Below are positions 2,661 to 54,604 of a stretch of DNA of 64,000 bases, piece after piece. The stretch spans positions 124,001-188,000 of the forward strand of contig JAYWIR010000096.1 of assembly GCA_036172245.1 (NCBI GenBank), read 5' to 3'. The translations under genes and the position numbers were made by a program. This DNA comes from Raillietiella orientalis. Lineage: Eukaryota. The notes beneath the pieces are model-generated. The model was not told the origin of the DNA, did no database searches, and was given only the letters and a program-made list of their open reading frames with translations. Within the stretch, counting starts at the first letter, position 1. Every line of letters begins with the position of its first letter.

Positions 2661-2792
2661 CTTAATCAGTTCATTGTGCTCGTGTGTGCCCGGAGAGGGG
2701 AAGTTTTCCAGAAGAAACAAAAAAAAAGAAGCGGCGAGGAGATCGCGGCAAAAGACCTGCAGTGGTCCCGTGCAGCAAGACCAGCTGCCAGG

Positions 2793-7614: not shown

Positions 7615-7748
7615 TCGAACGCCTTGCGTTCTCTAGGGTGGATGTGTTTTCTCGGTGCTCCTCGTGCCAGGAAGTCTCCCCCAGTGCAAGCGTCGCATGG
7701 TTCGGAGGTCGATCAGGCAGCGATGCCTGACGCGACCACCAGGGATGG

Positions 7749-7830
7749 CCAGGGGGCAGCGGCAACGCCGCCCCCAGAGGCGATGGAGAGCCAGGGGGCG
7801 GCGGCAACGTCGCCCCCAGAGGCGATGGAG
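7749..7830 (+). repeat. 42-bp tandem duplication in A2 ORF1 (QGAAATPPPEAMES x2)
   Basis: Two nearly identical adjacent 42-bp units. Confidence 0.85.
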
Positions 7831-9029
7831 GTGGGGGCATCCGCCCCCACAGAATCGGTCCCCGCTGCAGCGCGGGCGTGGAGCGCCGTTGTGTCGGCGC
7901 CATCGCCTGCAGCCGCGGCGGAATTGTCGGCCTATGTAGAGGAGGGGTACAATCCCTCATTGTTCTACAAGGTAGGCAATTTATATTCTTTAGAGAGCGC
8001 GCGCGCCTTCTCGAAGGGCATGCGCGCTCTCGATGTGAAAGAGGAGGAGCTCAGCGCTATGACCATCCGAGGCGGGGGTCAGTACGTTGAGGTCATTTGA
8101 AACATGCAGAGCTGGCCCAACGACTGCTAAAAACCCCCGTTGTGATGGGGACGCGCAGGCTCCTCCCCACTACGGCGGACCGCAGCATGGTGGTCCACCT
8201 GTTAGGCGTAACCGCGCGAATGCGCAAAGAACAGGTTGGCGCCGCTCTGGAAGAGTTCGAAACGGTCCACGCGCAGTGGACGAAAGTTAGTCCTTTCGAG
8301 GACTACACGGGGCTGCAACACGGCCTCACTGCTGCGCGCGTGACCGTTCAGGAGGGCTGCACTTTTCCCCACAAACTGGTGGTCGAAGGCGAAACCGTCG
8401 ACCTCTGGTATGTGGGGAACCCGAAATACTGTGGCATCTGCAATACGTCGGGCCACCTCAAAAAGGGGTGTCCCAACGTGCAGTGCCAAGTATGCGGAAC
8501 CTTGGGACACACGAGGAAGGTGTGACCTAAAGCAGCATTGCGGGTGGTTTCCAAGAGAAACCTTAAAAAACGTGCCCGGCTTCTGCAGAAAAGACTGGCG
8601 GCGAAGGCTGCCGCGAAGGCTGTGCCACCCGCGCCCAAGGTCCAGCCCGCACCCGAGACCCCGGCGAACAACGCTGAACTAGTCGACGGAACAAGCCAGG
8701 AGCCTGGGGGGCAGGTGGTTACGGCCAAAAAATCAAAGAAGGAGAGGAGGATGGAGAAAAAGCTCGCGTACCGCCAGAAAAAACAGCAGGCAAGCGAGCA
8801 AACTAAAGAATGCAGCGTTGTCGTTTATTACCCGGTTGCGCCGGGACGTTTATCTAAATATCAACTGAGAACTGTGTTCCCAGGCAAGGGGAACAGAAAA
8901 TGGGGAGTAGATTTCCCTGAACGCAGTCCGGGCACACTGAGAGTTCGGAACGGGATTGGGTGGGACAATAAATAAACAAACTGGGTGGGTAGGCGCAGAC
9001 AGGGGTATACCGTCTAACCGTTGCTATTC

Positions 9030-12000
9030 TCAGAACCGGCGGTGAATGCCGCGGATCTCCATCCTCACTTCTGCTCCAAGATGTGGCCACCCGGTAGCCA
9101 TTTGCAGGTTGCAGGCTGCGGTGTCGGGGACCGATGTTGGGACTGCTTGCCACTGCAATACGTGACGGGCTCTGACAATGGCGCGGACGCAGCGGATGAT
9201 TGCGACGACCGCTCCAAGAGAAAGTCCGCCACGCGTGTACAAGCGGCGCATCCAATCCAGTGCGGTGTGTCCAGGGTGCAGGAGCGCAGAAGACAGCCGC
9301 TGCCACAGCTCCTGGAGGGCACCGCACTCAAACAGCATATGCGGAAGCGATTCCACCGCTCCGCATTTGGCACAGTTCGGAGACGCAACTCCCCCAGGAA
9401 TCAGGTGCGCCCGCTGGTTGCAGTACAAACCCCAATGCACCAGCAGAAAAGCGTCCTGCTTCCACCGAAGGGGGAAGAGAGTCGCGTCCAAACACGCAGA
9501 AGGGACCACAAGTTCATCGGTGGGCACCCCGAGGAGCTCACTTCACCGGAGAAGCCCCTTTGCAAGAATGCGAGGTGTGACAGCGTCTGCCACTTCGCAA
9601 GTCCTCCAGCCGCCCAGCAGTCGGGTTTCGCCTGCGATTTCGCAAGTGATCTCCCACCTCGCCGGCAGGTCACTGTCATCTTGCACCATCAGTGCACACA
9701 GTGCTTCGGCGAGTGGCGTAGCGACTAGGCGTGTCCACTGGCCCTGGTCTTCCAGCACCTCCCCCACTGGACAGTATGGGGAAACTTTCACGCAGCAGAG
9801 TTCCAAACGGGACACATCCTGTTGCGCTGCCCAGGACGATAAGGCTTTTTGCCTCCAGGCGTTGAAGTTCGTCGGCCGGCAGGAGATCCACTCATGCATT
9901 CCCAGAAGCGTGGCGAGCTGCTTCAAAGGGAAGCCGAATCCTCTCTGGGCGCGCTCCGTGCGCAGATGCAGCGAACGTAGTCCGTCGCCACCCGTGCTGC
10001 GCCGCAGCAGCAGCCGCGCTGGAGCACACCAGGGAGTAGTCCAGAGCTGCGCACAAAGTGCCAGCATGCGGAACTGCACTAGCAGTCCGATCCGCTCCAG
10101 CGTCAGGATGCCCAATCCTGCATCCCGCCGAGAAGCCGCCAAGTCCTTCAGGCGTATCCTGGACCTCGCCGGTCCCCAGAGGGCGTTACGCAACAGGCGT
10201 TGCGCCCGGCGCTTAGCCGAGTAGGGAGGGGGACAAACAAAAAAGAGGGGACGGAGGAGGGGGGCAACGAAAATGTTCCACACGAAGGCCCGTTCCGACA
10301 GGAGAATCCTGCGGCCTTGGTACGGGCCCAGAGCAGTTTCGGCCTTGTGAAGGCAGTCCGACCACGCTTCTGCTGGAGAGAAGGCGCCCAAGGGAACGCC
10401 GAGGTACTTCAAGCACCTGCTCGTGGGGATCTTCAGGCGGATCCAGTCGCACTGCCCCTTCCACGTAGAGCCAACCGGTAGAACGGTTGATTTCGTCCTG
10501 TTCACGCTCAGGCCCGCTCCCCGACGAATGAGCTCGAAGAAGTCCTCGAGCCTGGACGCCGGGGTGGACATGGGCAGCAGCAGGAGAAGGTCGTGAGCAT
10601 AGGCGTCCACGGCCGGGATTCCCGGGCAGGAGCTCGGCAGGTTGGCCAGCGTCAGCCTGTACGCCCTCAGCACCAACTCAAAGAAGATGCTGAAGAGCAG
10701 GGGGCTTAAGCCGTCTCCCTGCCTGATACCCCGCCGTATGGGAACACCGTACACGTGACGCCCGCTGAAAGAGATGCAGCATAACGCGTAACGCCAGCAG
10801 GAGCGCAAGTAGGCGAAGAGGTGCGTCGGGAGGCCTAGGCGTTTTAGAAGCTCCAGGAGGAGGTCCTGGTTTACGCTGTTGAACGCTTTGCAGAGATCGA
10901 CGGCGACCGCTAAGGCTCCCGGCATTCCATCGTGCCTTGAACACGGATGCTCTCCTTTGGCAGCAGCGATTTCGGCTGCCTGGCTCTGCTGCGGCACGCG
11001 CTGCTGCAACTCGATATATGTTCGCGCGAAGAAGAGATTCGCGTCCATGGACCGCCCCGGAACAGCATACGTCTGCTCCGGACTTACCAAGGACTCTGCG
11101 ATTCTCCCCAGGCGCGCGACCCATAGCCTGGAGAACAACTGGACGGCCGAATTCACCAATGTGATGGGACGTTAGTTGCTGAGGTGGCGCAAATCACCGC
11201 CTTTCGTCAGGAGACGCACCTTTGCTGAGCGGAAAGAAGCGGGAACATCTCCCGTCTCACGCATCAGCGAGAAAAGGCTTAGCACCAGAGGGACGAGCTC
11301 CGCCGCGAAGCACTGGAAGAACTCCGCGGGCAGGGCATCCTCCTTAGGCGCCTAACGCCTCTTCAGGCTTGCTATGGCAGAAGACACTTCTTCCGCCATG
11401 AATGGTCAATCCAATTTGCCGCGTTCCTCCTCGTCGATAGCAGGGTTGCTCGTCTGAAGAAGCAGCTCGGAGAGACTGCGTTCCGTAAGCTCCTACGCGT
11501 ACAACGAGGAGTAGTAGCGCTTGACTACGCGGTGTACTTTGGCTGCAGCCGAGCATTCCTGGCCAGCGTCATCGAGCAGACAGGCCGCTCCAGACTGCCA
11601 AACCTGGCACTCGGCCCTGGACTTGTACTCCGCAAGGTACCGGACGTCCGGGCATCGAAAGAATTGGCGGGCCTGCAGAAACTCTCTGCTGTTGGCCACG
11701 CCTTCCCCGAAGCCACGGGGAAGCATGTGCAAGAAGAACCGGCAGCAGAACTCGCGGTCCGATCTTTTCAGATCGTCCCAGTCCTCGAGTTCACAGATGG
11801 CGAAGCCCCGGAGGTGTTGGCGGAGATGCTCCGCCGCCTCCGAATTGCTAGGCCAGTCGGCCGGCAACCTCCAGACATTCATCGGAGGCCCTTTGCCAGG
11901 CGGTTGGAGCTCGAACTCCAGTCTAGGATGATCCGAAATCGCGGACAGCAAACGCCCTCTTTGACCTACTCGTGAGAGCAGGTGTTCATCGAGGAACGCA

Positions 12001-12593
12001 TGGTCCGACGATCTCTCCATCCCGGGCTCACAAGCAAGCAAGTTTTGCACGCGCACGGACGCGCATACCTCGCTCACCAGTTGCTTCTCCCTCAAGCGGC
12101 ATCTCTCCTCTGTTAGCAGGTGGACGTTGAAGTCTCCTGCAAGGAGGTGCGCCACGTTAGGGCCGAAGTCAGGGAGCCAGCGGCTGCGCAGGCCACCCAG
12201 GAATGCAAGTCGATGGGCGTAATGCCGGGCGCCGCTCGGCGCGTAGATGTTCGTAACGACCAGGTCGATCGATTCGGACCACTTGAGGACAAGTTGGCCC
12301 ACACGACCTTCCTCGTCGAAACAAACGTTCCGCATCGCCTCCGCAACCCTGCCTCGGACGAGGAACGCGACTTCGCACGTGTGCGCGGAGCCTTGCCGCC
12401 AGTGTAGCGTCCCGCCCGCGCGCTCTTCCAGATCCGATGCCTGCCGTACGGAGATGCTATGTATCTCCTGCAGCAGCATTAAATCGAACGTGCGCAAAGC
12501 GTTGGCTGCCGTCCGTTTTTTGTCAGCATCACGTAGTTCGTTGACATTCCAACAGGCCACGCTGACGCAACGAGCGGATGCGAGTCCACGCAT
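9030..12593 (-). pseudogene. B1 ORF2 (APE-RT-CCHC), disrupted
   Basis: APE motifs, DLCKAFN, RQGDGLSP, YAHD in place of YADD, CAKCGAVESLPHMLFEC; several stops. Confidence 0.92.
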
Positions 12594-14559
12594 CACTGCT
12601 GCGGACACGACGGCGTGCTCCTCGCCCCGTCGGGCGAGAAGTCAGCTGGTAGGAGAGCGGATTGGGAAGCGGAATTGCTCCCGTTCGCCGTTACATCGCG
12701 CCCAGCTGAGTCCTGGGAGCCGAGGATCATCGCCTCGGTCTCCGTGCAGGAGCCGGAACCGCCTCCGGCAACAGGCTCGTGCTTTCGCACTTTAGCCAGG
12801 CGCGCTACCGGCTTACCCCGGGATGCGCGCTCCATTTGGTTGCACTCGGACTCCACCTCGGACTCCGAGTGCCTGGCGCGAGACTGGCGTTTTGCCAGTC
12901 TCTTTCTGTTTCGGCAGGTGGAGGCTTGCCCTGCCCGCGCGGGGGTCATCGCAGTCGCCAACGCAGCTTCCGGAGCTTTGGCTTCCGCAGCCGCCCTCTT
13001 GCGCGAAGCGACAGAGACAGAGCACACAGCGGTAGTGCGTACCTGGGTACGCACCTTTTTCGGGGAGCTTCTCTTTTGCCTCTCACCTACCTTAAGGATG
13101 GGGAATATTGAAGGGTCAACCTTCTTCTTCCCCTTTGTGGGCGTCCTGGAGACTCGAGTCCAGCGCGCGTCGGGGACACCCTCCTGGGAGGCCGACGCCT
13201 CCCTCAATTGTTTAGCCGGAGATACCGGCTCACGTTTCGCGCTCGCGGCGGGAGACGGCTCCGTCCCCGTTACGCACTGCACCTGCTTCTTAGCCGATGC
13301 GAGCGAAACGGCGGTGATTGCCGTCGTCCCGCGAGGCGCTATTGCAGCCTTCGCTGCTCGTGCCTTCGGCGTGGAAGACGTGATCTCCACCGCCGTAGGA
13401 GGAGACTGCCGTTCAGAGGTAGCTCCGAGGGTTCCCGCGCACGGTTTCCCGTATGCTCCGCTGGACGCGCAAGCGGACGCGGACGGTTCAGCAGCCTTGA
13501 TTGAGTGCGTGCCCGCACTCTTAGGCTGCTTCGAAGGGGACCATTTGCCCCCAGGGCGACGTGGCATCTTTCCCGTCTTGGCGGTTGTCTGCGATGGTGG
13601 CTTTCCTGAAGCAACCGCGCCTTTTTTCGCGGGACCGGCACTCGAAGATGCCCCGCCCTTGGAGCCCGATTTCTCCCGTGGCACAACGGGGGATCTTTTC
13701 GGCGCGTACGGGGTTGATTGTTGGCGGCTGATCGCCTGCCACTTTCTCTTCAGCTCGGCGCACTCTTTGATGGAGTGGCCGAGCTGTTTACAATAGCAGC
13801 AGTTGCGTAAAGGGCACGTCCACGGACGGTGGCCCTCGGCACCGCAAATGCCGCAAGCCAGTCGCTGACCGGCAAATTTAAGGTGGACGATCGCATCGCC
13901 CACCTGCAAGTGCGGAGGCATTTGCCTCCTATCCGCCATGGTGACACGCGCCATGGCAAGTTCGCTGTGGAGAGATGCAGTCCTTTTGATCGGATTATCT
14001 GCTCTCCTCAGCGCGTGCACCGTGGCGAATGCACTTAGTGCAGCGACGAGCACGCGATCAAGCGTGTCCACCTGGACGGCGGATAATCGAACCACGAACG
14101 ACTGGTCCATGGCCAACAGACGACCTCCTTCCCGCGGATATTTAGCAGGGTGCAAAGAAGGCGCTGGACTAGGGATGCCTCTTTGCAGTGCACATCCCAG
14201 TGTCCGAGCGCGTTAACCGGCATGACGGGCAGGAGGTCGTCCTGTCGGACCCCGACGCGCAAAAGCTCGTCCCACAAATTTTCTCGGACCCCGTCGGAGA
14301 TCGCAGCACTCACCGGATAGCATAGCGCAGGCTTGTAGCCATGGGCTGCATATGCCTGATGCCCCGCTTCGTCGGGCGGTGCTCCGCTGGCTGCCGCCGC
14401 CTTGACGACGGAAACGAAGCTTCTCGTCGGTGGCGAGACACAAGAATCAGAGGCAGACCGGACATCTGGAGTAAAGTCTCCACTGCAAGTGGCGGCTTCC
14501 ACATCCATGTTTTGCTGCAGGGGCTCCGTGAACATCCCAGTGGACGCACTCGGGCACAT
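12593..14559 (-). pseudogene. B1 ORF1 (two CCHC knuckles, long K/A/S/P-rich tail), frameshifted
   Basis: CGICGAEGHRPWTC, CCYCKQLGHSIKEC; ends PQQ-TGA overlapping the ORF2 ATG. Confidence 0.88.
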
Positions 14560-15188
14560 CACACACAAGAAGACGGAAAGGAATCACGCTCGAGGAGCAA
14601 CACAGAACACGTCCGTGCACTGTTGTCGTCGAGTGTATTCCCGACCGCTGCGAAAAAGAACTCGCCGCTACCGACGACCACCGCTCTGCTGAGTGTCAAC
14701 AGCGAGGGGAGCGAGCCGGCAGCAGTGTCCGTCATCGACACCACCATCGATGACGTAGCCTTCGCGCGAGCCGCGGAGGAGCTGGCAGCCTCGTTACAGC
14801 CAGAACCCTCCAAGGCTGGCAAGAAGGCCGTAAGGCGTCCGGCCTCCCCTCAGGAGTCCCCTACTGCCGATCCCGAAGTGGAGGCCGGAAGCGCAGCCTC
14901 TGTTTCCACGGCACCGCACAAGAAGGCTGGACGTAAGTCCACAATGCCAAGGAAGCTCGTCTCCCCCGTCGTAGGGGAAGAGATGGCTTCCGCAAGCGAG
15001 GGTGCCATGAGCGTGGGAAACTCTCGGGACCCGTCGACCCAGAGACTCCGACGCGGGGACACTGAGGGGATGGAGGGGGTGGAGGCCGAACTGGTGCCTC
15101 AGGTGCCTGAGAAGGCCGAAACCCCCATGAACATCCCGCCCGCCTCGCAAGAGGAGGGCTCCCCCACACCTTAATCTTCTTAGCAGTA

Positions 15189-18100
15189 ATGCCGGAAATC
15201 TCCCGCCGTCGTCTGCGCATCGCCGTTTGGAACGTGAACGGGATGACAGACGCCGGGAGGAGACGAGACATGGTCGCCCTTCTGGAGTCCTACCAACTTG
15301 CGCTGCTGCAGGAGATCCACCTGATCTCTGCAGAACAAGCGCGAGAGATCGAACGGATCTCCGAAATGCGGCTATGGTACAGGTGTGGGAGAGCGAAAAG
15401 TTGCGGTGTCGCCTACCTGCTCCGGCCAGCCGTCGAGACCGCGGCACGGAACATGCGGTTCGACGATCACCGTCGTTTCGGCCAGCTGACTCTCAGGTGG
15501 TCGGACTCGATCGATCTAATCGTGACGAACGTGTACGCACCGAGCGGCGCGGACCTGATGAACAAAAGGGCGATGAAAGAGTTTTTCCTTGCTTTCCGGC
15601 GAGACTGGCTGACCGAAGGAGGCGTGCGGAATGCCCATCTGGCTGAAGGCCGTTTCAACATTCGCCTGAAATCAGATGGGCAGAATCCCGAGCGTGACCT
15701 GGTCAACGAGGTGTGCAAGGCGGTGCACACCTGCAATTTGTTGGCCAGTGCGCCGGGGATGGGAGACTGCATCGACCACGTGTTTCTTGACGAGCATTTG
15801 TGCCCTCGCGTGGGCAGGCGCGGCAGGTTACCGTGCGAGCTGTCCGACCATCGCACGCTAGTCCTCCAGATTTATCCGCGCGACAAAAGCCCCCCCTCGT
15901 CAGCGTGGCGTCTCCCAAGGGACTGGCTGAAGCTCCCGGTCTCGGCACAACATCTCCGCACGTTCATACAGAGCTTAATGCTTCGGACACTTCAGGATTG
16001 GGAACGCTTCAAGCGGTCGTTCCACGAGTTCTGCGAGCAGTTCCCTCTGCACCGCCTACCTACGGGTTTTGGGACCGGGGTCCGTAACGAACGAGCCTAC
16101 CTGCAGGGTTGTTGTTACGCCAGGACCCCCGACATCCGCAGGCTGGCGGAATACAAAGCGGGAGTGAAAAGGCAAGCCTGGCAGTCCGGATCGGCCAGCT
16201 TACTGGACGATCAGGGCCAGGAGCACTCGGCACCTGCCAAAATCCGCGGCCTGCTGCGGTGTTACTACTCCTCCCTGTATGCCAGGGCACCTACGGAGAG
16301 GAACGTCTAACGAATTCTGCTTACGGGAGGCGCTCCAGCAATCGAGTAGGAGCAGAGAAAGACCCTCGACGAGCCTTTCAAGATGGACAAGATCCTCTCA
16401 GCCATCAGAAAGCTCAAGGAGCGAAACTCTCCAGGGGAGGACGGCTTGCCCGCGGAGTTTTATCAAACTTTCGCGGCTGAGCTTACCCCCCTGGTTTAGC
16501 AACTCACCTTGCTGATACGCGAAACAGGTGACGTTCCCGCCTCGTTTCGTTCTGCAAAGGTGCGGCTCCTCCCTAAGGGAGAAGATCTGAAGAGCATGAA
16601 CAACTGGCGTCCCATCACAATAGTGAATGCGGACTCCAAGTTGCTGGCTAAGGTTTGGGCAGAGCGTCTGGGACGGGTTGCCAACATGTTCATCAGCCCG
16701 GAACAGACATATGCTGTTCCTGGGCGAAGCATGGAGGCGAATCTGTTTCACGCTTCCACCTGGCTAGAGCTCCAACATGAAAGGAGCTTGGTGCGCAGCC
16801 GGAATTCCGGTGCGTGAGCCAGCGAGGAATTGGATGGTCGGGTGGGCAAGGCAGCCTTAGCGTTCGCAATCGACTTGCGGAAAGCATTCGATTGCATACA
16901 CCAGAATCTCCTTCTGGAGCTTCTGGAACGCTTGGGCTTCCCGGCCTCATTAGTGGCCTATCTGCGCTCCTGCTGGCGCAACGCGCTTATCAATGTTACT
17001 TTCAGCGGGTAGACCGTGCACGGCGTGCCGGTGCGGCGTGGGATCCGGCAGGGAGACAGCCTGAGCCCCTTGCTCTTCAGTACCTACTTTGAGTTGGTAC
17101 TGAGAGCGTACAGGGGAACTCTGGCGCACCTGCCGCACGACTGTGCCGGTACGCCGGCCGTTTCAGCCTTGCGGACGACCTTCTGCTGCTGCTCCCTATG
17201 TCCACCCTTGCAGCGGCGGTCGAGGAGTTCTTCGACCTGCTGCATCAAGGAACCGGAGTTACGGTGCATAGGGCGAAGTCGTCCGTTATGGCAGTTGGTG
17301 CGCCTTCGGCAGGGCAGCAGGACTGGGTCGGTTTGGGGATCCCCACGGTGAGGTACTTCAGATACCTTAGTGTGCCGTTGGGGGACTACTCCCCTGCGGA
17401 AGCGTGGTCCGGCTGCCTTCAAAAAGTAGAGACGGCGATCGGCCATCTCCGAGGCGCAGGTTTTCCTTGCCTGAACAAGCCGCGCTTTGGAACACGTTCG
17501 CGGCTCCTCTCCTCCGCCCCCTGCTTTTTGTTTGCCCCCCCACAGAGAGAATTAAAAAGCGGACAAAGGACCTCCTCCGTATCGCCCTTTGGGGCAACGG
17601 GAGGGCCCGAGTCCGCTTAAGGGACTTGTGCGCTCCTCGTCGGGATGGTGGTCTGGACCTCCTGACTCTGGAGCATCTGGAGCTTCAGCTCCAGTTCCGA
17701 TTGTCGGCATTCGTTCCAGGGCTGTTGTGCACCTGTTGGTGCGTACCTGCACGTTTCCTTCTCCAGCAAGTTACCGGCAAGACGGTACTGACGTCATTTC
17801 TTGCACTCCGTCGCCGCGTCAACCGATGCGGACTCCAGCTACGGAGAATGGCTGCGCTGTATCGCAAAAACCCATGATTTCTCACCTGTCGCCCTTTGAA
17901 CGGTAGTGCCTAATCGGAGGAAACCGTTTGAACCTGGGGACAGTTCGGCATGCAACGCTCCCAACAGGAACGAAGGTTCCTGTTTGGGGGTTACAGAAGT
18001 TGCACGCTCCGCGAGATCCTGGAGGATCCAAAGAAGAGAGAGTGGGCAGGAAAAACCTCCTCGCTGCTGCGCTGCTCTCCCTGATGGAAGATCTGGACAG

Positions 18101-18764
18101 CGATGTTGCGGCGAAGTGGGTGGTTACAGTAACAATCTCTGGAAAGGAGAAGAAGATAGGAGACTGGAAGACGGGCCAGTTAACAGATGCTGCGTCCCCG
18201 AGTACGCCTCCCAATGGACTTCTGCGCTGGGGCGCGCTGCTCGATGTTCCCATTGAACATCTGAAGTGGCCCCCGGTGCTCATGAACACTTCCGCCCTTC
18301 CCTCAAAATGGCAGGAGTCGGCTCTCCTGTTGCAGCACTGGGGACTCCCCTGCAACGCCCGCCGACACCACTTTACCTGGAGAGCGGTGGACCCCAATTG
18401 CGTCAAGTGTGGGGAACGGGATTCCCTCCCCCACCTGCTAGTGGATTGTGTTGCCCTTCGGCCCCTTTGGTTTCGCATTGCCGCGGCCATCCTAATCCCC
18501 TGCGGCAACCCCAGGGACGCAATGAAAGTCCTCTTCGTTGCCGACGCCCTTCGGCCAGCGGCCTCGTTAGCATCTTTGTGCTGCCTACGCGGGATCGTCA
18601 CCGCTTGGAGCAAGGCTACGGGAGGACAACGCGACCAGGGTGCCATCCAGCCAGCCTCCCAGTTCCTGAGGAGGGCGTTTCGATGGACCCAACTGGATCG
18701 AGGAATACAGAAGGAGCTTGCCGGCATCCTGCAAAGGATGCAACGGCCCTACCAGCAACTGTGA
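15189..18764 (+). pseudogene. A2 ORF2 (APE-RT-CCHC), multiple stops and frameshifts
   Basis: WNVNG, LQEIH, NVYAP, IDH, SDH, WRPITI, DLRKAFD, RQGDSLSP, CVKCGERDSLPHLLVDC. Confidence 0.92.
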
Positions 18765-18983
18765 TCCTCTCCCTTACCCTCCCAACTTTTCTTTTTTCTT
18801 TTGTTTTTTTTTTTTGTTTTTCTTCCTTCCCCCTGCTGCCGTGGTGGACCGTACCGGTCTGCGAACCGGTGACCCGGCAGGCTCTGTGTTTCTTCGTGCG
18901 TTGCAGGTGCAATGGTCCAGCCACCGCACGTCTTTGTAAAATTTTATTTTACAATAAACGCTTCGGCGAAATCCGGATGAAAA

Positions 18984-21900
18984 TCGAACGCCTTGTGGAG
19001 ATCGCCTGCGATCGCTAGGGCTTTCTTTCCCGCTCCGAGGTCCCTTCCTAGTCCGGCTGGCGGCCTCAATGTTGGGTTCCAGATTTTCCGTTTCCCTTTC
19101 TTCTTTCTTCTCTGCAGGTGCATCCATGTGCTTGCGAATAACAGGTTGGCATCCATACTTCGCCCGGGAACAGCATAAGTCTGCTCCGGGCTAATTATGG
19201 ACTCTGCCACCTGTCCCAGAGGCAAAGCCCATAGCCCTGCCAGCAACTTGGCGTCCGTATTCACAATTGTGATGGGACGCCAGTTGTTCAATTTACTGAG
19301 GTCTACCCCTTTCGGAAGGAGCCTCACTCTGTCTGACCGAAACAAGGCGGGAACATCGCCTTCGTCTCGGAGCAGCCTTGTCAACTAAAGCACCAGGGGT
19401 GCCAACTCTGCTGCGAAGCACTGGAAGAACTCCGCTAGCAAGCCTTCCTCCCCTGGCTCTTTACGTCTCTTGAGCCTTTTAATCCCGGCGAGAATTTCGC
19501 CGGTCGTAAAAGGCTCGTCGAGGCTTTCCTTCTCCTCCTCCCGTTTTGCCGGGGCTCCCTCCGGGAACAAACCACTGGGAACGTCCCGCTCCGGGAAGGA
19601 CTTCGCGTAAAGGGAGGAATAAAAACACCGCACGAGGTGCCGTATTCGAGCCGGGGCCGAGTGCTCCTGGCCCTCGTCCAGCAGGCTAGCAGACCCGGAT
19701 TGCCAGGCTTGACGTTCCGCCCCGGCTCGATACTCCACCAGGCGACGGATATTAAGGGTCCTCGCTTAACGACGAACGTACAAATACGCGCGTTCGTTAC
19801 GGACCCCTTCCCCAAATCCGGGGGCAGGCGATGCAAGGGGAACTCCTCGCAGAATTCCCTGACCAAGGCCTTAAAGAGGTCCCAATCAGCGGGATTCTGG
19901 AGGGTGACGCGTCTCAGGAATTCGCAAAGGTGTTCCTTCGCATCTGAGAGGCGCGTCCAGTCCCCAGGCAACCGCCACACCCTGGACTGGGGTCCCTTGT
20001 CGCGCGGGCACTCCTCGAATATCTATCTGGAATGGTCAGACAGTTCCGACGCAACTTTCCCCCGTTTGCCGACCCGCGAGCACAGGTCGACGTCCAGCAA
20101 GAGGTGGTCGATGCTGCTGACCATTTCCGGGAGTTCCCCTAACAAGTTGCACGTGCGCATTGCAGCCCACAACTCGTTAGCCGTCCGTTCCTGTGTGCGT
20201 AACTCACCTGATAGCAGGCGGAGATTGAAGTCTCCCGCTATCAGGTGAGCCACGCGAACGTTCGCTTCCACCAGCGAGTCGTGCTTCAGGCTTTCCAGGA
20301 ACGCCGCGCGTTCCCGGTACCTGTTATAACCGCTCGGGGCGTATACCTTTGTTACGACGAGGTCGATCGTGTCGGACCATCTGAGAATCAGCTGGCCGAC
20401 ACGACCGGCTTCGTCGAAGCGCACGCCCTTCACGGCAGCGTCGACCGCCGGCTTCATGAAAAACTTGACGCCGCAGGTGAATCGGGTGCCGCATTGCCAC
20501 ACCAGCCGCCCCCTGCGATCCTCTCGATCTCCTGGGCGTCCTCCCCGGTGATCACGTGGATCTCCTGCAGGCGTGCCAGGTCGAAGTCACGCAGGGTGGC
20601 TGCCGTGTCCCGTCTGTTGCTGTCGTCGCGCAGCCCGTGGACGTTCAAACATGCCACACGCAATCGACGGCGACAGGCGAGCCCAGGTGTTATTCCCGGG
20701 TAAGTGGCAATGGGGCTCCCGCCACCTGGTCGGGCGGGACGGATGGAGGCATAGGGGAACCGCCCAGCGGTTCTCCCACCTCCATGGGGGCAAATTCCTC
20801 GGCGGACCGGAACGATTGAAGGGAGCATGCTTCACGCACCTGCTTCCCCTCTTCCATGGGGGCCGATTCCTCGGCTGCGTTGGACGGCAGGGGGGAGCGG
20901 TTCTCAGCTGTCTTCTCTCCCTCTTCCATGACCATCTCCTCCGCAGGCTCCACCGGTGGAAGGGTGAGGCAATGCCCTACTTGCTCCCCTTCCTCCATGG
21001 GGGTGGCCGGCTGCTCGGTGGCGGAGGGTGGGAAAATTCCTCCCTCTGTTCCCACGCTGCCGGCTTCCCCCTCGGCTGCCGGTGCGTCCCCCTTGCTCTT
21101 TGTCGGGATGCGCCTCTTGGGATTCTTGGACTTCCGTCCAGTCTTCTTCGGAGGCGCCTCCGTGGAGGAGGACGAACTTCCGGCGTCCGTGTCGTGGTCA
21201 CCTGTCGGAGATGCCCTGGTCGCGGCCGGCCTTCGCAAGGCCTTGCGCGCGCCGTTCTCACGGTCGGCGAGTTTGGCCGCGAGCTCTTCCGCCGCCTGCT
21301 GGAAGGCGGCCTCGTCGATCGCGGCGAGCGCGTCGCGCGGTTCCCCCTCTGTTCGCACAGAGGGGAAGCCTTCCGTGATCGCGTTATCGTCGGCGTCGAC
21401 TCAGGGGATATCTCCCCCGGTGGCGGTCTCGGGTACCTCCACACGCTCCAAAGCGACCGAACATTCGCGGTTCAACGCGCGGCGTTGTCTCCTATTTAAA
21501 AGAGACGTCGCGGGTTCCGCTGTCGACCCTTCGGTTTTCTTAATTTTCTTGGCTTGAGGCTTCGCCTTCTGCCATCCTTCGCTCTTTTCAGCGTCGTCGG
21601 TAGATTCCACGATCGGCGTTTGCTGCACGGGCTTGGGCTCCGGCTGTGGGTTCCGCCTCACGGGTGCCTTCGCAAACTTTTCCGTAGCGCCCGCGCGTTT
21701 CCCTTTGGCCTTTTTCAAGGCAGCGGGAGTGGGGGGTTCGCGCTTCGGGCACACTTTGCGGAGGTGGCCCTTCTCTACACAGTAAAAACACTGGATGTGA
21801 GGGCACCGCTTTTTCAGGTGCCCTGTGGCATCACAGTGTCCACAGTACTTGGGCTTGCCCACGTACCAGACGTCGACTGTCTCGTTGCCGACGTCTAGTT

Positions 21901-32676: not shown

Positions 32677-35600
32677 CGTCGGCTGGAGCAGAGCATTCGC
32701 GGTCCTGGTCGTCGAGCAGAACTGTCGCCCCTGACTGCCAGACCTGGCGCTCGGCTTTGGCCTTGTACTCGGATAATCGACCAACGTTTGCACGCCTGGA
32801 AAAGGTGCGGACCTGCAGAAAATCTCTGCTGTTGCCTACGCCCTCTCCGGAGCCGCGCGGAAGCTGGTGCAAAGGAAACCGGCAGCAGAACTCGCGGACC
32901 GATCTTTTCAGATCGTGCCGCGAGTTCTGCTGCCGTTTAGAGGTTTAGAGGGTCCTCGAGTAAGAGCGGACGGGTTTTTGTTTCGCTCTTGAGCGTTAGT
33001 GGTTTTATTTTTTCTTTTTTTTCTTGGTGTGCCAGTTAATTCGGTGGTGGTTAGGCAGCAATGCCTGCAACCATCACCAATGTTAAGGACGGGGCGACGT
33101 CCATGTCGCCTTCTGAATCAATAAATGTGGGGACAACCGTCTCCACAGAAGCCACTCCCTCGCTAGGGAGAAGCTGGAGTTCCGTGGTTGTGGCGCCAAC
33201 GCAAGCGGCTGCGGCTGAGTTAAAAGCCTACCTGGAGGAGGGGTACAATCCCCTCTACTCTGCAAGGTAGGCAACCTTTACTCCTTTGAGAGTGCACGCG
33301 CTTTCTCAAAAGCGATGCACTCCCTCAAAGTACCACAGAAGGAGCTCATGGCGATGACCATCATGAGTGGTGGACAGTACGTTGAGGTGATTTGCAAAGA
33401 ACCAAGTCTTGCCCAGCGTCTGCTCCGTACACCTGTTCCTTTAGGGAATCGCCGGCTCCTCCTCATCACGGAGGATAAATCTATCGTGATCAACCTCCTC
33501 GGAATCACCTTCCGGATGGCCGAAGAGGCTGTCCGAAAGGAACTAGTTAAATTTGGAACTGTTCACGCGTTGTGAAAAAGGCCGACTCCGTTTTGGAAGT
33601 ACGATCTCCTCAATTGCGTTATTGCTTTCGCGCGCATCACTGTCCGCTAGTGTTGTACCCTACGAAAAAAGGTGGAGGTCAACGGCGAACCCGTTGACAT
33701 CTGGTATGTTGGTAAGCCGCAATTCTGAGGGCATTGCAGCACTTCAGGGAACCTGAAAAAAGGTGCCCCCAATTGCAGTGCAAGCAAAGCAAGCAACCCG
33801 AGCACACTCTTCCAGTGTGCCTGCAAGATGAAGTCCGCGTCGCGTCCGCACGGAATGACAAGAAGCGCGCGGCGAGAAAAACACGAGTTCAGGCAGCCCA
33901 AGAGAGAGAAGCCGCTAGAAAAACAACTATCGTGTCCCAGTTGAAGGTCAGCTTCGAGATCTCGGAAAACTCGGACAAGATCGAGGAGAACAGCCAGGAT
34001 CCTGGATGGCAGGTAGTAAAATCCAAGAGGCAGAAAAGCCTCAAGGAGGTAAGAAAAAATGTCGCGAAACGTAGCGAGAATTTGCCGCGTCGCGAAAATA
34101 TCAAACGCTGCTCTGTCGTCATCAAGCGCATTCCTGCGGTCGAACAGAGCGGCTAAATAGCACACGTCGCTGCCGACATTCAGCCCTCCGGCAAATTCAT
34201 GCCGGAGGCTATCGACTTGGCGGTGGCGTCCGTCGTCGAACGCATGCTCGACGATGTCGCCTTTGAGCGGGCGGCGGAGAAGCTCGCTGCATCCTTGCAG
34301 CGTCCCCTTAAATCCGCGGAAAAGGCCTTATGGCGTCCGACCTCGATCAAGAAGTCGGAGATTCCGAACTCTGACGCAGAGGCGGAAAACAGCCTGCGGC
34401 ATCGCGGTCTCCCGACCAAAGGCCAATTGCACGAAAGAGGCTACCCGCAAAATTCTCCACTCCGTGGAAAAGGAAGAGATAATTGAGGAAAGCGAGCGTG
34501 CCAATAAAGTGGGGAACTCCGGGGACTATCCTCGAGAGGTAACCTCACCCTGCAACTTCGGAGGGAGGGAAAGGGTAGAGTCTGTGCCCCAGGTGCTTCA
34601 AGTGCCTGAGACGGCCGCGGTCGCCTTACTCGTCCCTCCCACCTGTCCGTTGACAGGTGCTGCAACGGCACGTTCCCAGCCTTAATGCCGGGAATCGCCT
34701 CTGGCCTCGGTGTGTGAATTGCCTGTTGGAACGTCAACGGGCTAAGCGACGACGGCAAGAGACAAGACGTGGCCTCTACCCTGGCATCGTTCGACCTGGT
34801 GCTGCTGCAAGAGATCCACGTGATCTCCGCAGATCAAGCAACGGAGATCGAGCGTAACTCCGGTGGACGGCTGCTGTGGCGTTGCGGCACCGTTAAATCT
34901 TAGGATGTCGCGTTCCTGCTTCGTCCAGCTGTCGATCTTGCGGCAAAGGGCGTACGGTTCGATTGTGCCGGTTGCGTCGGGCAGTTGACCATCATTTGGT
35001 CCGACTCCATCGATCTGGTCATTACCAACGTGTACGCCCAAAGCGGCAGCGACGCGCTAAGGGCAAAGGCAAGGAGAGATTTCTTTCTTACCCTGAGGCG
35101 CGAATATCTGGACGAAGCGGGTGTGCGCAAGGTGCACCTAATCGCAGGTGACTTTAACCTGCGCCTGCTGTCAGGTGCGTCCGACACACTTCTGGACCGC
35201 GTGAACGAGCTGTGCGCAGAGATGCACACGCGGCACTTGTTCGCGGGAGATTCGGAAATAACCGACAGCATAGATCACGTGTTTCTCGACCTGCACTTAT
35301 GCTTACGCGTGGGCAGGCGCAACAAGTTACCTTCGGAACTGTCGGACCATGACCGGATCATACTCAAGCTGCGCTCACGCGATAGGAGCCCGCCGTCATC
35401 TGCGTGGCGCTTACCGGGGGACTGGCTGAAACTTTCGGAAGCCGCAAAGCATCTCCGCGGATTCACATGAGGTTCCAGTTTGCAGACGCTTCAGGACTGG
35501 AACCGCTTCAAGCGCTCGGTCCGGAATTTTTGCGACGAATTCCCTATGAACCTTCTGCCTCCTAAGTTCGGTGAAAGCTTGCGTAACGAGAGATGGTATT

Positions 35601-38600
35601 TACGATCTCGATGTTACGCGCGAACAGACGTACGAAGGCTAGCCGAATACCGTGCGGGAGCCGAGAGGCAGGCGTGGCAATCCGGGTCGGCCAGCTTACT
35701 GGACGACCACGGTTCGGAGCACTCGGCCCCCGCCCAGGTAAAAGGCTCATTAAAAAAATTCTACTCCTCCCTGTACGGGCGCTCTCCACGGGAACGAGAT
35801 GTCTCGCAACTTCTCCTTCCGGAGGGCGCTCCAGCGATAGGGGAGGAGGAGAGAAAGATTCTCAACGAGCCTTTCACGATGGACGAGATCCTCTCGGCCT
35901 TCGGAAAGCTCAAGAGACGAAAGGCTCCAAAAGAGAATGGCCTGCCCGCGGAGTTTTACCAAACTTTCGCCGCTGAGCTTACCCCTTTGGTACAGAAACT
36001 CACCTTGCTGAAACGCGAGACAGGTGACGTTCCCGCCTCGTTTCGTTCGGCAAAGTTGCGGGTCCTTCCTAAAGGAGCAGTTCTGAGGAGCATGATCAAC
36101 TGGCGTCCCATCACAATAGTGAATGCGGACGCCAAGTTGCTAGCCAACCTGTGGGCAGAGCGCCTGGGACGGGTAGCCAACATCTTCATCATCCCGGAAC
36201 ATACATATGCTGTTGCCGGGCGAAGCATGGAGGCGAACCTGTTTCTCGTTTCCACCTGGCTAGAGCTCCAACATGAAAGGAGCTTGGTGCACAGCCGGAA
36301 TTCCGGTGCGTGCGCCGGCAAGGGGTTGGATGGTCGGGTGGGGGAGGGAGCCCTTGCGGTCGCAATCGACTTGCGAAAAGCATTCGATTGCGTCGACCAG
36401 AATCTCCTTCTGGAGCTTCTGGAACGCTTGGGCTTCCCGGCCTTATTAGTGGCCAATCTGCGCTTTAGCTGGCGCGACGCGCTCATCAACGTTTCTTTCA
36501 GCGGGCAGACCGTGCACGGCGTGCCGGTATGGCGTGGGATCCGGCAGAGAGACAGCCTGAGCCCCTTGCTCTTCAGTATCTACTTTGAGTTGGTACTGAG
36601 AGCGTACAGGGGAACTCTGGCGCACCTGCCGCACGACTGTGCCGGTACGCCGGCCGTTGTAGCGTACGCGGACGACCTTCTGCTGCTGATCCCTATTTCC
36701 ATCCCGGCTTCGGCGGTCCAGGAGTTCTTCGACCTGCTGCATAGGTGAACACCCGACTTAAGGTGAACACTTCGAAGACGTCCGTAACGCCATTCGGAGC
36801 GGCGTTGGAGGGCAGCAGGACTGGGTCCGTTTGGAGATCCCCACAATACGGTACTTCAAGTACTTTGATGTACCGATGGGGGACTATCTTCCTTCGGATG
36901 CGTAACTTAGCTGCCTTCAGAATGTAGAGATGGCGATTGGCCCGTTCCAAGGCCGCAGACTTTTCCTGCCAGGACGGGCCGCGGTGCGGAACGCGTTCGT
37001 GGTCCCCCTTCTTCGTTTACCACTTTTTGTTTGCCCGTCCACCAAAGAGACTAAAAAGCAGACGTAGGACCTCCTAAGGATTGCGTTTTGGGGTAGAGGT
37101 AGGGCCCGATTCCGGCTTTCGGACTTGAGCGCTCCGCGTCGGGACGTCGGTCTAGGTCTTCTGACGCTAGAGCGGCTGGAACTCCAGCTCCAGTTTCCGT
37201 TACACGAACTAGTGGCGAAGTATTGGAGTTGCAGTTGGTTCGAGCCCGCACTTTTTCTCGACGAACAAGCTACAGGCAAGGTGTGACTGTCATCCTTCCT
37301 TGGGCTCCGTCGTCGCCGTCATGTCGGTCACTGCGGGTTGCAGCTGCGCAGAGTGTCTGATTTGATGAGGATGAACGCGGGATGGCATTTTATTTTCCCT
37401 CTAACGGAACCGTTTGAATCCAGGAAAGCGTTTACATGTGGGCGTGAAGCAACGATCACCTCGACGGACAAGATCGAAGACAACTGTTTGCTTGCAACGA
37501 ACGCTTCACCCTTATTGAGATTCTGCAGAATCCCTAGAAACAAGCGTGGGCGAAAATAATCCCCTCGCCGCAATGCTGTCTTCCCTCGCTAAACATTTGG
37601 ACAGCAACACTGCTGCGAAATGGGAAGTGTCCGTGAAAATCTCCGGTACGGAGAAACAGATCGGGGAATGGAAAACGGGCATTCTCTGTGATACTGTTGC
37701 CCGGATTATCACCCCAATTGGACTTTTGCACTGAGGCGAGCTGCTGGAATTTCCGACGGAACAACTTAAGAGGCCCCGGTTGCTGATGAACATCTTTACC
37801 CTCCCCCTAAAATGGCAGGACTCGGCGTTACTGTTGCCGCATTGGGGGCTCCCCTGCAACGCCCATTGACATCATTAGACCTGGGCTGCGGTGGACCCTA
37901 ATTGTTTGGGGTGTGGGAAACACCGTCCCTCCCCTACCTCCTTATGGATTGCGTTGCTCTTCGGCCCATTTGGAACCGCTTCGCCGCGGCAATCGGTATC
38001 CCCTGTGGCAACCCCAGAGACGCTATTAGGTCCCTCTTCGTTTCCGACGCCCTTTGGCCAGCGGCATTGTTATCAGCCATGTGCTGCTTTCGAGGGATCG
38101 TCGCTGCTCGGAGCAAGGCAATAGAAGGACTACGCGATAAGGGTACCATTTAATGCGCAGTCGAATTTATGAGGACAGCGACTGGATGGACCCATCTGGA
38201 TTAATTAAGTAATGGACAGCTTGCCAAAATTCTAGAAAGGATGGAGCGGCCCCGCAGCAGACTGTGATCCCTTCCCGTGCCCACCAGATCTTGTTTTTAT
38301 ATAGTTTTTATTTTCATTCATATCGTTTTGTTTTGTCCCAGCCCCCTGTACTGTCGTGGTTGACCGTACCAGAATGCGAACAGGTGACCCAGCAGGATTG
38401 TTGCTGTGTATTTCTATGTGGCTAAACCACCAGTTGAGCCACAGAATCTCGTTTTATCCGCAAGAATAAACGACCCGGCGCAACCGGGTGAGAAGCGACT
38501 TCAAGGACGGCGAAGCCCCGGAGGTGCTGACGAAGGTGCTCCAACGCTTCCGAATTGCTCAGTTGATAGCACGGCATCCTCCACACATTCTTCGTAGGCC

Positions 38601-41150: not shown

Positions 41151-42600
41151 TTAAGGAGGGCTACAACCATGCCTTTCATTATAAGGCAGGTAACCTCAAT
41201 TCTCCTCTTACCACGCGAAAATTTGGAAATGCCATTCGGAAGATGGGCATTAGAGACCAGTAGATTTTCTATTTCTTTGTTTGCAGAGGCAACAGTTTGC
41301 CGAGCTCATCTGCCGAGATGCAGCGCTCACGCACAAACTGCTCTGCACGCCTATACCTTCCGATGAACTTAATGTCCTCATACATATGTTGGATGACTCT
41401 AAAGTGATCTACTTATCTGGCAGAATTGCTCGGTTTAGCGAGGAAGCCATCCGCACAGAATTAAACAAATTCGCAAAGATTTACGCAATTCTTCAGGAGT
41501 TTAACTCATTCACCTTTAGAGGGTCATTTAGTGGGCGAGTGGCCTCTTGGGTAGCTCTTCACAACATTGAACCTCCCCACAAACTAGAGATCAACATGAA
41601 GCTGGTTGACATCGGGTACGTGGTGAAGGAAAAATGATGCAAGCAGTGCAAAATGCTCGCGTATTTGAAACAACGATGCCTTTAAGCAAATTGACCAACA
41701 TGCGTCGAAAAGGGCCATACAAGCGTCGTTTGTTTGAATATCGTCGTTTCACCGCCGGAAACCCCCAAGAAAGAGGGCTAGAAGGCAAAAAAACAAGTAG
41801 AGGCGACTAATGGCCAATCCCAGAAGAAGTAGAACAGGCGGAGCAGGAGTCTCAAAGGTAGACTTCTAAGCAAAATGTCGGCGTGAACGACGGGAAAAAG
41901 GTCGTAAACAAAAAACTGAACAATAATAGAAATAAAACAAAAACCCTGCAAAAAAACACAAGGCAAAACGCGAACGTTCCAACAAAACTCGCTAGTGGCA
42001 CTAATGAAATTTCGACGTGTGGAATAATAAACAAATGCCGCGTTACAATTCAGCGCGTTCCGTCGATCGAGCGTCGATCGGTGAACGCGAAAGCTTTAGC
42101 CGTCCAGGAACTGCCACAGAAAAACTGTGACAAGGGTGACAGCAGCAGCGATGAGAAGACTTTCGATAAGGCGGCAGTGGAAGTGACAGCGAAGTTAATG
42201 CAGCCTCCGTAGGCTGTAAAGAAGGCCGTGAGGCGACCGGCGGATTTCGAAGGTCTGGCAACTTCCGAGTCCGCAACGGGAAGCGGAAGCGCTCTCTCCT
42301 TCGCCCACCGGAAGAATCGTGTTCGGTGTGTCGGTGCGAAAAGGGATCAGGCGGAACAATATCCTGATCCGCGTGCTCTTCAGCATTCACTTTTAGCTGG
42401 TGCGTTGAGCGCAGCGGTAGAATCCGACTTGCTTGCCGCGTGTATGCCCAGGTTTTTACCTGGACATGCTATGGCATTTCTTATTAAAATAAAAATAAAT
42501 AAAATTATGCGATGAAGTCTAAAAGCATGTTTTAGGCCGAACACGCGGTTTTGCTTCATGAAACACTCCTAATTACAGGTTTGCAGGCCGGTGAAGTAGC
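41151..42600 (+). mobile_element. Old, heavily decayed ORF1 and start of APE of a related family
   Basis: KEGYNHAFHYKAGNL, ELICRDAALTHKLLCTP, KCRVTIQRVP, EKTFDKAAVEVTAKL, LLHET. Confidence 0.7.
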
Positions 42601-43265: not shown

Positions 43266-43269
43266 CCCA

Positions 43270-54587: not shown

Positions 54588-54604
54588 AGTGCGGACGTGT
54601 TTTA
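54588..54604 (+). promoter_or_regulatory. Conserved 5'-terminal (C)GGACGTG motif, DPE-like internal promoter candidate (representative copy)
   Basis: Present with variants at all nine recognisable A-H 5' ends. Confidence 0.55.

What the first reader, a model, noticed from the sequence alone, without database searches (positions are those of the whole stretch)
8811..14640. Family B inserts antisense into the ORF1 C(S/C)VVV motif of A/H elements
TGCAGCGTTGTCGT|TTATTACCCGG (8811-8835) and TGCTGCGTCGTCGT|TTATGACCCGG (62068-62092) have the same register. The host ORF1 proteins are clearly more diverged than B1 and B3, which suggests independent events. B1 has an 8-bp duplication GTTGTCGT (14 bp with two mismatches). 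Empty homologous sites are KRCSVVIKRIP (~34105) and RECSVALE (E0, E2).
Basis: seen in the sequence. Interest (0 to 1): 0.75.

Follow-up and report, generated by a model that had tools for sequence, protein, structure and literature searches.

The report
LINE that targets another LINE's ORF1
A retrotransposon family sits backwards at exactly the same base inside a coding motif of two very different host retrotransposons, which points to sequence-specific insertion of one jumping gene into another.

Summary
B is an APE+RT non-LTR retrotransposon on the minus strand. B1 is 8825-14621. B3 is 62082-64000 and is cut by the window end. Both 3' ends abut the same base of the ORF1 codons C-(S/C)-V-V-V of two plus-strand LINEs: TGCAGCGTTGTCGT|TTATTA and TGCTGCGTCGTCGT|TTATGA.

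B1 and B3 are 94.2% identical (K2P 0.06). The host flanks are 68% identical (K2P 0.42) and the host ORF1 proteins 51%. The two insertions are therefore independent.

One correction: the duplication is 8 bp (GTTGTCGT). The extra "TGCA" belongs to B's own conserved 5' terminus.

Three homologous ORF1 sites that differ at the nick-proximal bases are empty. Other families in the window behave the same way. Three A-type 3' ends follow the antisense of the RT motif K-A-F-D. Three 5' junctions follow the APE motif G-D-F-N.

Best reading (about 0.72): B is a sequence-specific, TPRT-inserting LINE whose target is a conserved coding stretch of other LINEs, within a nest of LINEs that insert into each other.

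Limits: only two B junctions can be assessed, B2's 5' flank is unrelated, and no genome-wide survey was possible. It is a new variant of a known kind (Tx1L into Tx1D; Zepp nesting).

The parts
8825..14621 (-). B1, a full-length but degenerate B element (5,797 bp): 5' terminus, ORF1, APE, RT, 3' hairpin and tail
   Evidence: Pfam finds RVT_1 in 9543-11159(-) and Exo_endo_phos in 11493-12608(-). The 3' end is fixed by the shared hairpin+tail module. The 5' end is fixed by the shared terminus AGTGCACGGACGTG. ORF1 is frameshifted relative to B2, and the APE and RT frames are separated by stops.
8825..8854 (-). B1 3' module: AUAAACG, hairpin CCCGG-CGCAA-CCGGG and 6-nt tail UAAUAA
   Evidence: Nine 3' ends in the window share this module and all end T-N-A/C-N-A-A. 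35 of 36 stem cells pair and there is one compensatory change.
8817..8824 (+). Left copy of the 8-bp target-site duplication GTTGTCGT. The inferred first-strand nick lies after T8824.
   Evidence: Exact repeat of 14622-14629. The host base after the nick is C, whereas B starts with T.
14622..14629 (+). Right copy of the 8-bp target-site duplication
   Evidence: It is followed by CGAGTGTATTCCC, which encodes (V)ECIP. This continues the host ORF1 and matches the empty A3 site CSVVIKRIP.
7627..8824 (+). Host A2, 5' part: 5' UTR and ORF1 with two CCHC knuckles, ending ...KECSVV(V)
   Evidence: Translation. tblastn against other ORF1 copies. The 5' region aligns to A3.
14630..18983 (+). Host A2, 3' part: ORF1 end, APE, RT, 3' module
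   Evidence: Pfam finds Exo_endo_phos in 15189-16310. 90.3% identical to A1 over 3.5 kb. 3' module at 18953-18983.
62082..64000 (-). B3, the 3' part of a second B copy, cut by the window end
   Evidence: 94.1-94.2% identical to B1. Hairpin and tail UCAUAA at 62082-62111.
61430..62081 (+). Host H2: a 5'-truncated ORF1 fragment ending ...KTCCVV(V). The start coordinate is approximate.
   Evidence: A minus-strand element reaches about 61429.
38495..41165 (-). B2, the 5' part of a third B copy (84-91% to B1). It is split by A3, with a further piece at 32676-32916. Its 5' flank is not the host ORF1 site.
34109..34123 (+). Empty homologous site in A3 ORF1 (TGCTCTGTCGTCATC, CSVVI)
21449..21463 (-). 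Empty homologous site in E1 ORF1 (TGTTCGGTCGCTTTG, CSVAL)
53306..53320 (+). Empty homologous site in E3 ORF1 (TGCTCGGTGGCACTG, CSVAL)

Best explanation
B is a target-sequence-specific non-LTR retrotransposon with an ORF1 carrying CCHC knuckles and an ORF2 carrying an APE-type endonuclease and an RT. Its chosen target is a short stretch, about 10-14 bp (..GCGTYGTCGT^C..), lying 10-20 codons before the end of ORF1 in other LINE families (A and H).

Inferred mechanism, by analogy with target-primed reverse transcription:
- The B endonuclease nicks the host element's sense strand after GTCGT.
- That 3'-OH primes reverse transcription of B RNA from its 6-nt tail. The tail lies just downstream of a conserved 3' hairpin, which presumably binds the RT.
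- The second strand is cut 8 bp away. This gives the 8-bp duplication and an insert antisense to the host ORF1.

Shown: element anatomy, exact junctions, the 8-bp duplication, independence of the two events, and empty variant sites.
Inferred: which protein part reads the target, the order of the nicks, and that the site is preferred genome-wide.

The insertion kills the host LINE, so B behaves as a parasite of other LINEs and helps build a LINE-only nest.
For: - 2 of 2 assessable B 3' junctions lie at the same base and strand of homologous ORF1 codons.
- Inserts are 94.2% alike against 68% for the host flanks, and the host ORF1 proteins are 51% alike.
- The occupied sites share 12 of 14 bases. 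The three empty homologous sites differ in the last bases before the nick.
- GCGTYGTCGT occurs only at the 2 occupied sites in 128 kb of both strands.
- The duplication is an exact 8 bp and host ORF1 continues across the insert.
- APE and RT domains are present. The APE is nearest to human L1 endonuclease among solved structures, weakly, E about 1e-3.
- The 3' end is defined by a module shared by 9 element ends.
- A-type elements follow the same logic. All three 3' ends (A1, A2, Hx) are followed by TCGAACGCCTTG. The two full host sites are 20/20 identical while 5 empty K-A-F-D sites differ. The hosts are 69% alike against 90-93% for the A copies. A1 and A2 lie head to tail, separated by one copy of A2's 12-bp duplication.
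Against: - Only two B junctions can be assessed.
- B2's 5' end abuts an unrelated AT-rich element with no duplication and no host ORF1.
- One perfect 8-mer, GTCGTCGT at 47645(-), is unoccupied.
- No genome is held, so flanks of other B copies could not be surveyed.
- Endonuclease specificity is untested.
- All sequence shared between occupied sites lies on the primer side of the nick. Protein recognition and RNA/DNA annealing therefore cannot be told apart.
Confidence: 0.72

Rival explanations
1. Homology-guided rather than enzyme-guided targeting. B RNAs transcribed from resident copies read through into the flanking host ORF1 sequence. That 3' extension anneals to the nicked homologous site in other A/H elements, so the RNA flank sets the site while the endonuclease is only loosely specific.
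For: All conserved target bases that can be seen lie on the primer side, immediately 3' of the element. B has no poly(A), and its tail has no complementarity to the primer. A1 re-used a site that kept only 12 nt of the canonical target on the primer side.
Against: There is no direct evidence of read-through transcripts. The exact, shared nick position in hosts only 68% alike needs a precise nick in any case. Tx1L and R1Bm endonucleases are themselves sequence-specific (PMC1950540, passages read).
Confidence: 0.13
2. There is no long recognition sequence. B prefers LINE-rich chromatin (regional or cluster targeting) and its endonuclease has a short consensus such as GTCGT/C, so the two hits at the same ORF1 base are a coincidence helped by codon conservation.
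For: The window is a dense LINE nest: 39,747 of 64,000 bases are hit by LINE proteins, and there are no tRNAs and no Rfam families. Zepp-type LINEs are reported to accumulate by nesting into existing copies (PMC8226300, passage read). B2's flank is different.
Against: GTCGT occurs 123 times in the window, yet both B 3' ends use the same homologous one. A-type ends show the same exactness at another motif in 3 of 3 cases.
Confidence: 0.1
3. There was one ancient insertion into an A/H ancestor, and the B parts were later homogenised by gene conversion. Alternatively, the arrangement is an assembly artefact in a repeat nest.
For: Conversion tracts would naturally stop where homology stops, which is at the element ends. 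The nest shows rearranged pieces.
Against: A host with a 5.8 kb antisense insert in ORF1 cannot propagate, so A and H could not have diverged to 51% protein identity while carrying B (inference). Identity steps from about 70% to 88-98% exactly at the junction.
Confidence: 0.05

Closest known systems
Tx1L / Tx2L of Xenopus laevis (Tx1 clade, L1 group)
   Same: An APE-type LINE whose endonuclease is highly sequence-specific and whose unique target lies inside another transposable element (PMC1950540 and PMC6719617, passages read). An ORF1 with CCHC knuckles is recalled for Tx1L and comes from no call.
   Different: The Tx1L target is a DNA transposon (Tx1D). Here the target is a protein-coding motif of other LINEs, hit antisense, and several LINE families appear to target each other. 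Clade membership could not be tested.
Zepp / ZeppL LINE clusters of green algae
   Same: L1-like LINEs that pile up as nested clusters by inserting into existing copies (PMC8226300 and PMC3446292, passages read). The high GC content and the LINE-only nest resemble this window.
   Different: Zepp is described as one family nesting into itself and giving arrays of 3' ends. Its poly(A) tail is recalled and was not seen in a call. Here there is no poly(A), there are several diverged families, and the target positions are base-exact. The primary paper (Higashiyama 1997) was not held.
R1/R2 in 28S rDNA and TRAS/SART in telomeric repeats
   Same: Site-specific TPRT into a multicopy target, no poly(A) dependence, fixed junctions, and repeated use of one site. 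The list of target classes comes from the introduction of PMC4640811.
   Different: Those targets are host multicopy genes or repeats, not other retrotransposons. R2 uses a restriction-like endonuclease.

Membership tests
Target-sequence-specific APE-type non-LTR retrotransposons | ORF2 with an N-terminal apurinic-like endonuclease followed by a reverse transcriptase | tested here: met
   Pfam Exo_endo_phos (E 1e-9) in 11493-12608(-) and RVT_1 (E 5.9e-14) in 9543-11159(-). PDB sequence hits to L1 endonuclease and to R2/L1 ORF2p reverse transcriptases.
Target-sequence-specific APE-type non-LTR retrotransposons | Independent copies at the same nucleotide and orientation of a repeated target | tested here: met
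   2 of 2 assessable B 3' junctions. Independence follows from 94% against 68% identity. The sample is small, and the B2 5' flank does not fit.
Target-sequence-specific APE-type non-LTR retrotransposons | Defined target-site duplication | tested here: met
   An exact 8-bp GTTGTCGT flanks B1, the one copy with both ends.
Target-sequence-specific APE-type non-LTR retrotransposons | Most or all genomic copies lie in the target, and the endonuclease nicks the target in vitro | not testable with these tools
   No genome is held. Contigs of run X1 were too short and junction loose ends were not listed. Pattern scans found nothing related.
Tx1 clade (L1 group) | RT/APE phylogeny places the element within the Tx1 clade | not testable with these tools
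   No reference LINE library was available. Only 3 database homologues were found, the best at 57% identity and unnamed.
Tx1 clade (L1 group) | ORF1 with CCHC zinc knuckles | tested here: met
   B ORF1 reads CGICGAEGHRPWTC and CYCKQLGHSIKEC. Pfam zf-CCHC hits the related E3 and E1 ORF1 but not B ORF1 itself.
Zepp / ZeppL | Poly(A) 3' tail (a feature recalled, not taken from a call) | tested here: not met
   All nine 3' ends stop 6 nt after a hairpin (TAATAA, TGAAAA and similar) with no A-run.
Zepp / ZeppL | Nested accumulation in existing LINE copies | tested here: met
   Nesting chains such as B1 in A2 in E1, and A3 and X in B2.
Zepp / ZeppL | One cluster per chromosome, or centromeric location | not testable with these tools
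   No assembly is held.

The most novel reading that the evidence does not exclude
The window shows a multi-tier network of LINE lineages. Each lineage carries its own sequence-specific integration machinery aimed at a conserved coding motif of rival LINE lineages: B into the ORF1 C-S-V-V-V codons, A-type into the RT K-A-F-D codons, and G-type into the APE G-D-F-N codons. Targeting codons that the victim cannot change without losing function would be an arms-race strategy. It would also explain mechanistically how LINE-only islands, possibly centromere cores as proposed for Zepp-like clusters, grow by self-nesting.
Probability: 0.4. Interest if true: 0.78.

Novelty: new variant of a known kind. 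Interest (0 to 1): 0.6.

Why it matters
Sequence-specific LINEs are known for rDNA, telomeres, small-RNA genes, microsatellites and one DNA transposon. A LINE whose safe haven is a conserved coding motif of other LINEs would add a new target class. This is more striking if several families do it to each other. It would be a clear case of transposon-on-transposon parasitism. It would also give a base-level mechanism for the nested LINE clusters that mark putative centromeres in some algae. APE-type endonucleases with new long recognition sites are also of interest as natural examples of retargeted integration.

Tried and rejected
- Own-genome search: no genome is held.
- Earlier notes of this scan: none, by place or by sequence.
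- Sequencing runs: one run, X1, holds related DNA with a word share of 0.10. Laying it on 7700-15400 placed 154 short contigs: 7 at 99% or more, 32 at 95-99%, 45 at 90-95% and 70 under 90%. Only 6 of 87 loose ends were listed, none at 8825 or 14621, so it says nothing about B flanks.
- Metagenome scan for the shared 3' hairpin: 1 hit (L001), which on reading is unrelated.
- Prokaryote genome scan for the B 3' end: 0 hits.
- Protein search with the B reverse transcriptase: only 3 hits, all unnamed. The Atlas gave only generic RT clusters.
- Rfam and tRNA scans of the window: nothing.
- The 14-bp duplication reading was rejected in favour of 8 bp.
- A single ancestral insertion was rejected on the divergence step.
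- I considered that the host-like 14 bp might belong to B. This was rejected because the empty sites carry the same codons.
- I tried to use B2 as a third junction. Its 3' end is missing and its 5' end abuts element F.
- Literature: five searches listed no paper describing LINEs that target coding motifs of other LINEs. Only listings and the passages named in this report were read. Higashiyama 1997 and Yamamoto 2003 are not held, so Zepp's exact insertion sites could not be checked.
Full report
WHAT THE WINDOW IS. The 64 kb window has 53-62% GC, apart from an AT-rich stretch at 42-46 kb. It is a dense nest of related non-LTR retrotransposons. tblastn with the B1 proteins and two ORF1 pieces hits 39,747 of 64,000 bases. 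No tRNA and no Rfam family is found. Each element has an ORF1 with two CCHC knuckles and an ORF2 with an APE-type endonuclease and a reverse transcriptase. No whole genome is held for the window. I did not try to name the organism.

THE OBSERVATION. B1 lies on the minus strand. Its RT ORF is 9543-11159 and its APE ORF is 11493-12608, both minus. B3 (62082-64000) is a second copy cut by the window end. Self-comparison gives 94.1% identity over 1,934 bp, starting at 8811/62068. In both places the 14 bases before the insert are in-frame ORF1 codons of a plus-strand LINE...KECSVV(V) in A2 and ...KTCCVV(V) in H2. Beyond B1 the A2 frame continues with (V)ECIPDRC. This matches the uninterrupted A3 copy (CSVVIKRIP), so B1 is a simple insertion into one ORF1.

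EXACT ENDS.
- Nine element 3' ends in the window belong to at least five families: A1, A2, Hx, A3, B1, B3, F, n6 and X.
- All nine share one module: AATAAACG, a 4-5 bp hairpin (CCCGG...CCGGG) and a 6-nt tail T-N-A/C-N-A-A. None has a poly(A) tail.
- 35 of 36 stem cells pair, with one compensatory U-A.
- This places the 3' ends of B1 and B3 at 8825 and 62082. The host base expected there is C, while B begins with T.
- At the other end, B1 starts (in its own sense) with AGTGCACGGACGTGTT. G-type 5' ends start (T/G)AGTGCGGACGT. E2 and E3 carry (A)GGACGTG(T/C)TTTT at their 5' ends.
- The TGCACT at 14616-14621 is therefore B's own terminus. The duplication is the exact 8-mer GTTGTCGT at 8817-8824 and 14622-14629, not 14 bp with two mismatches.
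- B1 is thus 8825-14621. It is a dead copy. Its ORF1 is frameshifted relative to B2. The APE and RT ORFs share a frame but are separated by stops. The C-terminal part is in another frame.

INDEPENDENCE.

| Comparison | Identity | K2P | Call |
|---|---|---|---|
| B1 vs B3 | 1808/1919 = 94.2% (88-98% in 200-bp bins) | 0.06 | 46 |
| Host flanks, 560 bp upstream | 360/529 = 68%, 64 gap columns (59-71% in 100-bp bins) | 0.42 | 46 (357/527) |
| Host ORF1 proteins, A2 vs H2 | 91/177 = 51% | - | 61 |

The host ORF1 proteins are as far apart as other family pairs; E1 against E3 is also 51%. The step in identity falls at the junction. A host with a 5.8 kb antisense insert in ORF1 could not have propagated and diverged, so a single ancestral insertion is not credible (inference). 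Two independent insertions remain the reading.

SPECIFICITY AT BASE LEVEL.
- Five homologous ORF1 sites can be read.
- Two are occupied: A2 (TGCAGCGTTGTCGT) and H2 (TGCTGCGTCGTCGT). They agree at 12 of 14 bases.
- Three are empty: A3 (TGCTCTGTCGTCAT), E1 (TGTTCGGTCGCTTT) and E3 (TGCTCGGTGGCACT). They differ at the bases next to the nick.
- GCGTYGTCGT occurs only at the two occupied sites on both strands of the window.
- The 8-mer GTYGTCGT occurs 4 times: 3 are B junction or duplication copies, and 1, at 47645(-), is empty in a different context.
- The 5-mer GTCGT occurs 123 times.

THE SAME LOGIC IN NEIGHBOURING FAMILIES. This was outside the finding, but it bears on the finding.
- A-type ends. 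The three A-type 3' ends are A1 at 7614, A2 at 18983 and Hx at 58279(-). Each is followed by TCGAACGCCTTG, the antisense of the codons K-A-F-D of the RT domain of a host LINE.
- The two complete host sites (E1 and G2) read GATCTCCACAAGGCGTTCGA, 20/20 identical. Five uninterrupted K-A-F-D sites (D1, B1, A2, E2, A3) all differ from it.
- The E1 and G2 flanks are 69% alike, while the A copies are 90-93% alike.
- A1 and A2 lie head to tail, separated by one copy of A2's 12-bp duplication TCGAACGCCTTG. This is what repeated use of one site would leave.
- G-type ends. Two G-type 5' ends and one 5'-truncated element begin right after the APE codons G-D/E-F-N (TTCAAT|C or TTCAAC|C), in sense orientation. 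That is 3 of 8 such sites.
- Here the contrast is weaker: hosts 65% against inserts 72-78%.
- A3, X and F end antisense inside B-type copies.

EVIDENCE AGAINST, AND GAPS.
- Only two B 3' junctions and one informative 5' junction exist in the window.
- B2 (38495-41165 plus 32676-32916) has lost its 3' part. Its 5' end abuts an AT-rich element, F, with no duplication and no ORF1 continuation.
- External data did not help. Run X1 holds related contigs, but they are about 300 bp long and no loose end at the junctions was listed. The pattern scans found nothing related. Only three unnamed protein homologues exist in the large collection.

MECHANISM.
- Shown: element anatomy, junctions, the duplication, independence of the two events, and the pattern of occupied and empty sites.
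- Inferred, from the established TPRT model for APE-type LINEs: the B endonuclease nicks the host sense strand (window plus strand) between T8824 and the following C. The 3'-OH primes cDNA synthesis from the tail of B RNA, and the adjacent hairpin probably positions the RT. The other strand is cut 8 bp upstream.
- All bases conserved between occupied sites lie on the primer side. I therefore cannot separate recognition by the endonuclease, as shown for Tx1L and R1Bm (PMC1950540, passages), from annealing of a read-through RNA to the primer.

COMPARISON WITH WHAT IS KNOWN.
[quoted passage not shown] The APE-type ones fall in the Tx1 and R1 clades (PMC4640811, introduction passages).
- Tx1L inserts in the DNA transposon Tx1D (PMC1950540; PMC6719617).
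- Zepp LINEs of green algae form nested clusters by targeting existing copies (PMC8226300 and PMC3446292, passages). Related cluster descriptions appear in PMC11005252 and two bioRxiv papers. None of the passages read there gives a base-level target.
- The present case works like Tx1L: an APE-type, sequence-specific LINE whose target is another mobile element. It looks like a Zepp-type nest.
- It differs in three respects. The target is a conserved coding motif of other LINEs, hit antisense. The elements have no poly(A) tail. Several families seem to aim at each other.
- Clade membership could not be tested.
- Five literature searches listed nothing that describes this. Only listings and the cited passages were read, and the primary Zepp papers are not held.

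VERDICT. It is a new variant of a known kind. Interest is 0.6. The genome-wide flank survey is the decisive missing step.

Noticed in passing
7584-7626, 18953-18995, 58259-58338: Three A-type 3' ends (A1, A2, Hx) are each followed by TCGAACGCCTTG, the antisense of the RT codons K-A-F-D of a host LINE. The two full host sites are 20/20 identical, and five empty K-A-F-D sites differ.
   Followed up: partly
7615-7626 and 18984-18995: A1 and A2 lie head to tail. A2 is flanked by a 12-bp duplication, and A1's 3' end abuts the left copy, as if the same site was used twice.
   Followed up: partly
48037-48060, 54574-54600, 29070-29095: Three element 5' junctions fall immediately after the APE codons G-D/E-F-N (TTCAAT|C or TTCAAC|C) in sense orientation. 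Five other G-D-F-N sites are uninterrupted. The host/insert divergence contrast is modest (65% against 72-78%).
   Followed up: partly
nine 3' ends: 7614, 18983, 58279(-), 38494, 8825(-), 62082(-), 46435, 52124, 32675: All share AATAAACG, a short GC hairpin and a 6-nt tail T-N-A/C-N-A-A, with no poly(A). This is probably the RT recognition module common to several families.
   Followed up: yes
14600-14621(-), 48049-48065, 54586-54602, ~28800(-), ~52145, ~30130(-): A conserved 5' terminus AGTGC(A)CGGACGTGTTTT is shared by B-, G- and E-type elements. It may be an initiator or internal promoter.
   Followed up: partly
58279-61340 (-): Hx looks mosaic. Its 3' 2 kb is 93.5% identical to A1, while its 5' part matches E-like copies at 79-87%. 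The RT frame nevertheless runs through the change-over.
   Followed up: no
32880-32940: The 5' junction of A3 inside B2 carries an 18-nt inverted copy of the adjacent target (CGGCAGCAGAACTCGCGG ... CCGCGAGTTCTGCTGCCG), a snap-back-like junction.
   Followed up: no
32676 and 46699: Two different plus-strand elements abut B-type copies at nearly the same B coordinate (B1 11522-11530): one by its 3' end (X) and one by a truncated 5' end. The two B pieces would be adjacent in B coordinates but lie 14 kb apart, which suggests rearrangement or repeated use of the site.
   Followed up: partly
41165-46435 (+): Element F is AT-rich (about 45% GC, against 57-60% around it) and single-copy in the window. 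It has a degenerate ORF1 and RT, and the same 3' module as the other families.
   Followed up: no
1971-3671 (+): A 566-aa open frame with no Pfam match is followed by a CCHC-knuckle stretch (3720-3869) that runs in frame into the 5'-truncated A1 APE at 4064. Its origin is unclear.
   Followed up: no
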